Of a stretch of DNA of 40,658 nt, positions 1 through 688 are shown in pieces. The translations under genes were made by a program, and so were the position numbers. The DNA comes from Bifidobacterium breve. GTDB lineage: Bacteria > Actinomycetota > Acidimicrobiia > Acidimicrobiales > Microtrichaceae. The stretch lies in the NCBI GenBank assembly GCA_945888825.1, contig CAMDAT010000001.1, positions 1 through 40,658 on the forward strand, written 5' to 3'. The stretch's first letter is position 1. Each line of letters starts with the position of its first letter. The notes under the pieces were generated by a model. The model ran no database searches. It was not told the DNA's origin and saw only the letters and a program-made list of their open reading frames with translations.

Positions 1-110
1 CCACCACAACAACGACCCCGGCGCCTGCAGGACCGAACCTGTTAGCCAACCCATCCTTCGAATCTGACGTTTTTGGATCAACCTTCACGAACTGGACGGT
101 GACCCCATGA
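1..110 (+). CDS. 3' end of a 5'-truncated CDS: Thr/Pro-rich linker followed by the N-terminal strand of a CBM4/9-like (galactose-binding fold) module
   Basis: Not in the ORF track. Frame 3 is open from the window edge and reads [39 protein letters not shown](108-110). NLLxNPxFE...W is the typical start of CBM4/9-type domains. The stop overlaps the next ATG (ATGA, 107-110). Confidence 0.75.
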
Positions 111-688
111 GCGGCATGCAGATCTTTGTGAAGACTCTGACAGGCAAAACAATCACCCTTGATGTCGAATCAAGTGACTCGATAGAAAACGTCAAACAGA
201 AGATCCAAGACAAAGAGGGTCTAGCCCCAGACATGCTGAGGCTGATCTTTGCAGGGCAGAAACTCGAAGACGGTCGCACGCTGGCCGACTACACGATCTC
301 GAAAGAAGCGACCCTTCACCTGATCTACCTAACTGGTGTGGTCACCTACGACTTGATGAACACCACGGGTGCACCGCCACTAGGTGCATCAAATCTTGCT
401 CACCTGACCGACGGTGCAAGCCTTGCGCAGCGGGTCACCGGCATCTCTCCGGGAGAGTACGTCCTCACCTTTTATTCCTCCGGAGATATCAGTTTTGCAG
501 TCGAATTCTTCGACTCGGCCGAGGCATCCGTCGGAGTGTCCTCAGGATCGGCAAGCAGCGCGGCCAACGATCTTGGACCCGTCACACTCAACGTCATGGC
601 ACCAACTGGGTCGGCAAGCGCCGAGGTTCGATTCGTAGGAGTTAACTCTTCGGTACTACTTGACCTGGTGCACTTCGGCACCGCCTAG
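107..688 (+). CDS. Ubiquitin-domain protein (eukaryote-like ubiquitin without diGly) fused to a C-terminal beta-sandwich, CBM-like region
   Basis: From 116 it reads [70 protein letters not shown]. The C-terminal part ([18 protein letters not shown]...AVEFFD...[18 protein letters not shown]...LLDLVHF) has a jelly-roll-like strand pattern. Confidence 0.9.

What the first reader, a model, noticed from the sequence alone, without database searches (positions are those of the whole stretch)
1..688. Ubiquitin appears inserted inside a split carbohydrate-binding-type domain that spans two ATGA-coupled ORFs
Seen: an unlisted frame-3 ORF ends ...[39 protein letters not shown], and its stop overlaps the ATG of the ubiquitin gene. 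The region after ubiquitin ([17 protein letters not shown]...VEFFD...[18 protein letters not shown]...LLDLVHF) looks like the remainder of a CBM4/9-like jelly-roll lacking its NLLxNPxFE...W first element. One extra C in the CCCC run at 103-106 would fuse both into ...[14 protein letters not shown]... Inference, three options: (a) one surface protein with ubiquitin displayed in a loop of the CBM fold, broken by a frameshift or a homopolymer sequencing error; (b) two proteins docking by beta-strand complementation, the upstream linker-bearing protein acting as a carrier for a ubiquitin cargo; (c) programmed frameshifting. I know of no described example of any of these.
Basis: partly seen in the sequence, partly recalled or inferred. 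Interest (0 to 1): 0.82.

Follow-up and report, generated by a model that had tools for sequence, protein, structure and literature searches.

The report
Split-domain Tat carrier for bacterial ubiquitin
Freshwater actinobacteria encode one sugar-binding-type domain in two pieces, a short protein with a twin-arginine export signal and a signal-less protein that begins with near-eukaryotic ubiquitin, and the pieces likely reassemble so that the short one would carry ubiquitin to the cell surface, a kind of export adaptor I did not find described.

Summary
ORF 3-110 is the tail of a roughly 78-residue gene cut off by the contig start. In relatives it encodes a twin-arginine lipoprotein signal, a Pro/Thr linker and only the N-terminal NLLxNPSFE...W segment of a CBM4/9-like jelly roll. 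ORF 107-688 is signal-less ubiquitin (77% identical, no Gly-Gly) fused to the rest of that domain.

The split recurs in three families of one order. None of 209 stored ubiquitin-domain proteins contains the missing segment. Junctions fall in all three phases, and at 20 loci a methyltransferase gene separates the two genes, so recoding is excluded. An intact relative shows the two halves abutting exactly where ubiquitin sits. Many acceptors end in surface-sorting tails yet have no signal peptide.

Best reading (0.68): the fragments complement in the cytoplasm and the peptide carries ubiquitin out through Tat. The complex prediction gave only weak support (0.34, controls 0.00), and export is untested. 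The scan earlier found signal-peptide ubiquitins on other DNA, but not this split design. A cultured strain carries it.

The parts
3..110 (+). 3' end of the donor gene (5' part off the contig): Thr/Pro linker plus N-terminal segment of the jelly-roll domain; in relatives a 77-82 aa Tat lipoprotein
   Evidence: 89-97% identical over this stretch to five full-length same-genus donors
36..95 (+). donor segment NLLANPSFE...W
   Evidence: E and W invariant in 17 of 17 donors; 9 of 9 variable sites synonymous in this frame among 8 close copies
94..102 (+). likely ribosome-binding site (GGACGGTGA) for the ubiquitin ORF, inside the donor gene
   Evidence: duplex energy -11.2 kcal/mol with a recalled anti-SD motif, top 2% of 484 ATGs on the + strand of the window
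107..110 (+). ATGA start/stop overlap (translational coupling)
   Evidence: other junction types in homologues
107..688 (+). acceptor gene: signal-less ubiquitin fused to a jelly-roll domain lacking its N-terminal segment
116..328 (+). ubiquitin domain; keeps L8, I44, H68, K6, K11, K27, K29, K33 and K63; has Q at 48; lacks the C-terminal RLRGG
332..685 (+). remainder of a CBM4/9-like (galactose-binding-domain-like) beta sandwich
   Evidence: AF2 beta sandwich for residues 97-193; weak CBM_4_9 and jelly-roll hits; aligns to residues 73-199 of intact relative L153

Best explanation
This is a conserved two-gene system in which a short twin-arginine protein encodes only the first segment of a jelly-roll domain and a signal-less ubiquitin fusion encodes the rest; the two chains likely reassemble into one domain in the cytoplasm, and the Tat translocase would then export the pair so that ubiquitin is likely displayed outside the cell with a free N-terminus. 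SHOWN: separate, coupled genes; a twin-arginine signal on donors; no signal on acceptors; the halves abut in an intact relative; tight co-occurrence; TatC present. INFERRED: complex formation, co-export, and anchoring. In this genus the anchor would be the donor's lipid (LASG-C lipobox), in family f26 the acceptor's C-terminal PxFTG motif. LEAST CERTAIN (about 0.4): the purpose. Most likely the non-conjugatable ubiquitin is a mimic or decoy that engages ubiquitin-binding proteins of grazing protists.
For: (1) All 33 donors tabulated carry RR. R, R, E and W are invariant in 17 of 17 aligned donors, and 7 of 17 match TIGR01409 at E<=0.1. (2) A hydrophobic N-terminal stretch is present in 16 of 17 donors (KD12 >=2.0) and in 0 of 30 acceptors (<=1.32). 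(3) 0 of 209 stored ubiquitin+domain proteins match the donor profile (redundant set). (4) Intact relative L153 has a Tat-like signal and the whole domain without ubiquitin: the donor profile covers residues 48-72 (E 1.4e-5) and the acceptor profile 73-199 (E 3.2e-5). The same order holds in L019 and L020. (5) In family f26, 23 of 24 ubiquitin-positive genomes and 0 of 63 negative ones have a strong donor match (linked genes in kin, so not independent). (6) 118 of 120 listed f26-type acceptors end in PxFTG. The motif occurs 22 times in G164 against 1 control, and by my reading 13 of the 15 other long PxFTG proteins there have an N-terminal signal. Other acceptors end in FN3 and bacterial Ig-like domains. 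(7) The complex score was 0.34 against a best control of 0.00, with runs agreeing in >=94% of contacts and partner pLDDT >=58. (8) TatC and sortases are present in 5 of 5 genomes tested.
Against: The complex pass is weak: 116 of 157 solved and 2 of 215 mismatched pairs reach the mark, but at <=0.60 only 18 solved pairs and both mismatches do. Halves of a split domain can also pass by likeness to solved structures. AF2 folds residues 97-193 confidently without the peptide (block pLDDT 71-94; only 75-96 under 50). G1125 (96% complete) has an acceptor and no donor match. Five f7 genomes carry ubiquitin + Thr linker + C-terminal membrane helix with no jelly roll. The four with a complete start show no signal peptide and no adjacent donor, and G1041 has no donor match at all, so signal-less ubiquitin may have another route out or may face inwards. 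The window's own signal peptide is off the contig. No expression or localisation data: RNA-library contigs touch the locus but do not show transcription.
Confidence: 0.68

Rival explanations
1. Docking after export: the ubiquitin fusion leaves the cell by a donor-independent route, and the Tat peptide only captures it and completes its fold at the surface.
For: Signal-less ubiquitin proteins with a C-terminal membrane helix and no adjacent donor exist in f7. G1125 has an acceptor without a donor. One donor gene often precedes 2-3 acceptors.
Against: A peptide with no fold of its own could use Sec, yet all 33 tabulated donors keep RR, which fits export of a folded complex. In f26 the donors lack a lipobox (only the 3 same-genus rows of 17 have one), so they would be poor anchors.
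Confidence: 0.13
2. The acceptor is a cytoplasmic protein that folds alone, and the donor is an exported remnant with its own or no role.
For: AF2 gives a confident sandwich for residues 97-193 alone. The acceptor has no signal peptide.
Against: PxFTG, FN3 and Ig-like tails on acceptors. Donor residues are conserved only where they belong to the fold and are under purifying selection. Co-occurrence is 23 of 24 against 0 of 63.
Confidence: 0.07
3. Export works as in the best explanation, but ubiquitin is only a stable, well-translated N-terminal leader or spacer for a carbohydrate-binding surface domain, not a mimic aimed at eukaryotes. This concerns purpose and is compatible with the carrier mechanism.
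For: Some members have a strongly diverged ubiquitin-like domain (P0174, P0184, P0197, P0199). Eight of 12 members of one cluster are 301 aa, and the two read start at the acceptor strand without ubiquitin. Within the genus ubiquitin varies more than the jelly roll (12.9 against 4.0 non-synonymous codons per 100).
Against: Between families ubiquitin stays 73% identical while the jelly roll falls to 32%. The window copy keeps L8, I44 and H68. No sugar-binding residues or ligand were identified.
Confidence: 0.25
4. Programmed -1 frameshifting, slippage or read-through makes one fused protein.
For: The window junction is in -1 phase, and the -1 frame is open from base 68.
Against: The CCCC run is not conserved. 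All 9 variable sites are non-synonymous in the -1 frame. Junctions occur in all three phases: 10 ATGA overlaps, 3 TGATG, one 9-nt in-frame gap and one 52-nt gap. A gene of about 1 kb intervenes at 20 loci. The acceptor has its own SD-like site.
Confidence: 0.02
5. Sequencing error, or a recent pseudogene of a fused gene.
For: One inserted base would join the frames. Broken copies do exist elsewhere (G858 donor with a premature stop, G322 first acceptor, G092 relic).
Against: No indel in six contigs. The same split occurs in all four same-genus genomes with a complete locus (six copies) and in two further families. No fused form among 209 proteins.
Confidence: 0.01

Closest known systems
Tat hitchhiker co-export (E. 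coli HybOC hydrogenase-2, PaoABC; Aio arsenite oxidase)
   Same: A signal-less partner is encoded beside a twin-arginine subunit and exported with it as a preformed complex (PMC4273604, passages; PMC13673990, passages).
   Different: The examples in those passages are subunits of cofactor-bearing redox enzymes. Here the carrier's mature part is a linker plus about 25 residues of the partner's own domain, there is no cofactor, and one carrier gene can precede 1-3 cargo genes.
Donor-strand complementation in pili, including Tat-exported haloarchaeal Tafi (TafE)
   Same: A short segment of one chain completes the beta fold of another; Tafi is Tat-dependent (PMC12337348, passages).
   Different: There the pilin itself carries the Tat signal and the subunits polymerise into a filament. 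Here donor and acceptor are different gene products, the acceptor has no signal and no donor segment of its own, so no polymer is expected.
BfUbb of Bacteroides fragilis, and signal-peptide ubiquitins noted earlier in this scan
   Same: A horizontally acquired eukaryote-like ubiquitin without the terminal Gly-Gly, exported from a bacterium (PMC11901371, passages; PMC3352274, search listing only).
   Different: BfUbb has its own cleaved signal peptide, is a free 76-residue protein ending in Cys, and kills related strains via a PPIase. Here ubiquitin has no signal, is fused to a split jelly roll and is likely tethered.
CBM4/9, CBM16, CBM61, DUF642 galactose-binding-domain-like jelly rolls
   Same: N-terminal NLxxNxxFE...W element and C-terminal ...llDxV strand; weak hits from both halves.
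   Different: Split over two genes with ubiquitin at the break; no member passes a Pfam cut-off; sugar binding untested.

Membership tests
Tat hitchhiker complexes | One partner has a twin-arginine signal peptide | tested here: met
   RR in 33 of 33 tabulated donors; L003 donor 18.9 bits over the TIGR01409 cut-off of 16.7; the window's own signal is off the contig
Tat hitchhiker complexes | The other partner has no export signal | tested here: met
   0 of 30 acceptors with a hydrophobic N-terminal stretch; 119 of 120 listed homologues start within 5 residues of ubiquitin
Tat hitchhiker complexes | Partners form a stable complex before export | tested here: inconclusive
   Weak support, 0.34 against 0.00; profile halves abut in an intact relative
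Tat hitchhiker complexes | Export of the signal-less partner depends on the carrier and on TatC | not testable with these tools
   TatC present in 5 of 5 genomes; needs fractionation experiments
Canonical ubiquitin (conjugatable) | Beta-grasp fold with high identity to eukaryotic ubiquitin | tested here: met
   PF00240 E 3.5e-24; 77% identity, rmsd under 1 A
Canonical ubiquitin (conjugatable) | C-terminal RLRGG for activation or release | tested here: not met
   Absent in the window and in all 30 rows of A6; present in 1 stored relative, P0207
BfUbb-type secreted ubiquitin | Own N-terminal signal peptide and free 76-residue mature protein | tested here: not met
   No signal; fused to a 119-residue domain
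CBM_4_9 (PF02018) | Score over the Pfam gathering cut-off | tested here: not met
   No hit for the window halves; 3 of 12 acceptors hit at best E 0.038
CBM_4_9 (PF02018) | Jelly-roll beta sandwich | tested here: inconclusive
   AF2 all-beta sandwich; Atlas neighbours CBM_4_9, DUF642, GH101 domain 5 at 0.89-0.93; fold searches were filled by ubiquitin
CBM_4_9 (PF02018) | Carbohydrate binding | not testable with these tools
   none
Programmed frameshift genes | Conserved shift site in one phase with no intervening gene | tested here: not met

The most novel reading that the evidence does not exclude
A natural, modular 'split-tag' export and display system. A minimal Tat peptide made of one domain fragment serves as a reusable adaptor that exports any cargo fused to the complementary jelly-roll fragment, and lake Acidimicrobiia use it to coat themselves with variable, non-conjugatable ubiquitin, possibly methylated by the co-encoded enzyme, to subvert the ubiquitin machinery of protist grazers.
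Probability: 0.3. Interest if true: 0.92.

Novelty: new variant of a known kind. Interest (0 to 1): 0.78.

Why it matters
It would extend Tat hitchhiking from redox-enzyme subunits to a dedicated carrier with no fold of its own. That is a natural split-domain export tag, and a direct test of how the Tat folding check reads a complex in which the signal-bearing chain folds only on its cargo. It also shows free-living lake actinobacteria of three families keeping near-eukaryotic ubiquitin, up to three tandem copies, on an apparent route to the surface. A cultured strain (IMCC26207, record L013) carries two copies, so both the export mechanism and the role of surface ubiquitin against grazers can be tested. 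The pair could also be a compact tool for exporting proteins with a native N-terminus.

Tried and rejected
Protein searches. A single-sequence search for longer forms of the C-terminal domain (339-2000 aa) found nothing (weak evidence). Only the best 120 of 194 hits were listed, so 74 were not inspected for fused forms.

Genome and virus searches. No relative was found in viral contigs (66 pattern matches, none confirmed). The own genome holds no second acceptor and no PxFTG-terminated long protein. No other cargo was found behind donor genes: the extra donor-like hits were donor+methyltransferase at contig ends, an ABC substrate-binding protein, or the intact L153. The locus of the ubiquitin-less 301-aa form was not found (34 and 53 genomes). 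The methyltransferase was not found with one query in G000, G008, G322, G1125 or G1041 (that call had no positive control).

Structure. Single-sequence AF2 left residues 75-193 unresolved. L153 has no Pfam or PDB sequence hit. The idea that the invariant donor Glu and acceptor Asp186 form a two-chain calcium site is recalled from CBM structures; the paper read (PMC5651945, passages) did not confirm it.

Tree and reads. The acceptor tree (25 rows) is poorly resolved (6 of 22 branches starred) and gives no order of events. It does group FN3-type acceptors of two families together (99/98), which hints at transfer. RNA-library contigs are not evidence of transcription.

Literature. Searches found no description of this system. 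The library lacks most subscription journals, and no supplements were read.

Full report
Observation. The window is the start of contig C1 of an 82%-complete assembly. A 5'-open frame-3 ORF ends at 110 with ...[24 protein letters not shown], and its TGA overlaps the ATG of a 193-aa ORF at 107-688. Residues 4-74 of that ORF are ubiquitin (PF00240 E 3.5e-24; 55 of 71 identical) without the RLRGG end. No other contig of the genome extends the region.

Not an error. Six contigs from six public runs (five studies) span 103-106 with no gap; they are contigs, and one may be the source sample. Five of 8 same-genus genomes carry the ORF, against 0 of 28 other genomes of the family. The four with a complete locus, two of them with tandem copies, keep the split. 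The CCCC run itself varies (CCCC, CCGC, CAGC). In locus L010 the stop has moved one codon upstream while the ATG stays at the same distance from the GGTG motif. That motif pairs well with a recalled anti-SD sequence (top 2% of 484 ATGs). Across 8 close copies, all 9 variable sites in the 22 codons from NLL to WTV are silent in the donor frame and non-silent in the -1 frame.

The upstream gene. In relatives it is a 77-82 aa protein: S-T-R-R-K-F-L-L, a hydrophobic stretch, LASG-C, a Pro/Thr linker, then the NLLANPSFE...W segment and a stop. That is a twin-arginine lipoprotein whose mature part is a linker and about 25 residues. The signal of the window's own copy is inferred from these relatives, which are 89-97% identical over the visible part.

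The family. Profile searches found the acceptor in two more families of the same order. Ubiquitin occurs in 8 of 301 genomes of f7 (6 with the jelly roll) and 24 of 87 of f26. It is patchy overall: 5 of 401 genomes of the order. Among 50%-identity representatives, 30 of 51 hits are ubiquitin or ubiquitin-like plus the truncated domain; most others are long multi-domain proteins with one or more such domains and no ubiquitin. None of 209 stored ubiquitin+domain proteins matches the donor profile (a redundant set). Donors were found at every complete upstream region examined except two: G1125, and the first of two acceptor copies in G322. All 33 donors tabulated have RR, and R, R, E and W are invariant in 17 of 17 aligned. 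In f26, strong donor matches occur in 23 of 24 ubiquitin-positive and 0 of 63 negative genomes; most of those donors helped build the profile, and kin are not independent.

No recoding. Directly adjacent pairs show 10 ATGA overlaps, 3 TGATG overlaps, one 9-nt in-frame gap and one 52-nt gap, which covers all three phases; G858 has a premature stop. At 20 loci a SAM methyltransferase gene of about 1 kb lies between the donor and one to three tandem acceptors. The chains must therefore meet in trans, if they meet.

One domain in two pieces. Each half gives weak hits to CBM4/9-type jelly rolls, and the Atlas places the acceptor part of homologue P0031 beside CBM_4_9 and DUF642 clusters (0.89-0.93). 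L153, from family f26, encodes a Tat-like signal and the whole domain without ubiquitin. The donor profile aligns to its residues 48-72 and the acceptor profile to 73-199 (probabilities 80 and 73%). L153 was found with the donor profile, so only the acceptor match is independent. L019 and L020 show the same order. AF2 with 19 sequences folds residues 97-193 as a beta sandwich and leaves 75-96 unresolved; this neither shows nor excludes that the fragment is stable alone. The complex prediction scored 0.34 against 0.00 for three controls, with runs agreeing in at least 94% of contacts and partner pLDDT at least 58. That mark is reached by 116 of 157 solved and 2 of 215 mismatched pairs, but at this low score by only 18 solved pairs and by both mismatches, and split halves may pass from likeness to solved folds. 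I count it as weak support.

Signs of export. Acceptors have no hydrophobic N-terminus (0 of 30, against 16 of 17 donors). Yet 118 of 120 f26-type acceptors end in PxFTG. This motif ends 22 frames in G164 against 1 control, and by my reading 13 of the 15 other long PxFTG proteins there have an N-terminal signal. Other acceptors end in FN3 and bacterial Ig-like domains. Anchors look complementary in two groups: lipobox donor with tail-less acceptor in this genus, lipobox-less donor with PxFTG acceptor in f26. Several f7 pairs have neither. TatC and sortase genes are present in 5 of 5 genomes tested. That PxFTG is a sorting signal is my inference from this company of proteins.

Mechanism. Inferred sequence of events: coupled translation, complementation in the cytoplasm, Tat export of the folded pair on the donor's signal, and anchoring by lipid or C-terminal tail, with ubiquitin at the free N-terminal tip. 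The likely history is that a ubiquitin gene with its own start entered a Tat-exported single-domain gene like L153 just after the Trp strand; the tree does not test this. Between families ubiquitin stays 73% identical while the jelly roll drops to 32%. Within the genus ubiquitin changes faster (12.9 against 4.0 non-synonymous codons per 100). This fits a constrained but varying interaction surface, and mimicry toward protist grazers is my best guess (about 0.4).

Against. G1125 has an acceptor but no donor match. Five f7 genomes encode ubiquitin with a Thr linker and C-terminal membrane helix. The four with a complete start show no signal and no adjacent donor, and G1041 has no donor at all. 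These leave open a donor-independent route. Some acceptors have decayed ubiquitin-like domains or apparently none. Nothing here shows expression.

Known systems and novelty. It would work like Tat hitchhiking (PMC4273604 and PMC13673990, passages; PMC10924467, abstract and outline), built with strand donation as in Tafi pili (PMC12337348, passages). It carries a BfUbb-like cargo (PMC11901371, passages) but fails the BfUbb and canonical-ubiquitin tests. Searches found no description of a split-domain Tat carrier or of ubiquitin in these bacteria. Earlier notes of this scan report signal-peptide ubiquitins in many bacteria (unchecked), none with this design. Record L013, titled Actinobacteria bacterium IMCC26207, holds two complete units, and that strain is a cultured isolate (PMC8353197, passages). 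L013 and the other named records are not added to the genome tallies, as they may duplicate handles.

Verdict. A real, conserved and apparently undescribed two-gene system, a new variant of Tat hitchhiking, with the carrier mechanism at 0.68 and interest 0.78.

Noticed in passing
L025:8881-9915 and 19 other loci: A SAM methyltransferase of about 340 aa (NAPW motif; below-cut-off HemK/PrmC-type hits) sits between donor and acceptors. Its best PDB hit is 7RC2-7RC6 (E 3.5e-7, core only), which PMC9060474 names as AerE, a peptide Asn N-methyltransferase. It may methylate the donor or ubiquitin; untested.
   Followed up: partly
G164, loci L029-L050: C-terminal PxFTG-stop motif on 22 frames (1 control), mostly on secreted proteins, with no membrane helix after it; looks like a lineage-specific sorting signal. 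No NCBIfam model for it hit the three PxFTG acceptors scanned.
   Followed up: partly
L114, L115, L116, L117 (G1041, G858, G893, G1056) and L075 (G970): Ubiquitin + Thr-rich linker + C-terminal membrane helix + basic tail, with no signal peptide and no adjacent donor in the four with a complete start; route and topology unexplained.
   Followed up: partly
L153:1742-2347 (G1145): Intact Tat-signal jelly-roll protein without ubiquitin, a candidate for the unsplit state.
   Followed up: yes
P0220, P0221 and six further 301-aa members of the P0178 cluster: The two read start at the acceptor's first strand with no ubiquitin: either a cargo-less acceptor or a mis-called start. The locus was not recovered.
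   Followed up: partly
G858 (L072), G322 (L027:8620-9240), G092 (L154:3364-3738), G1111 (L111): Broken copies: a donor with a premature stop at the Trp codon, a frameshifted first acceptor, a relic C-terminal fragment, and a methyltransferase in two frames.
   Followed up: no
L118 (G795:C18:189-3968): A 1259-codon frame with an internal ubiquitin-like domain and no jelly roll; possibly a eukaryotic contaminant contig.
   Followed up: no
window 6456-6923 and 6962-8854: A predicted lipoprotein with SDSG repeats, and a 630-aa FG-GAP/ASPIC-like secreted protein (labels from reading the translation, not tested).
   Followed up: no
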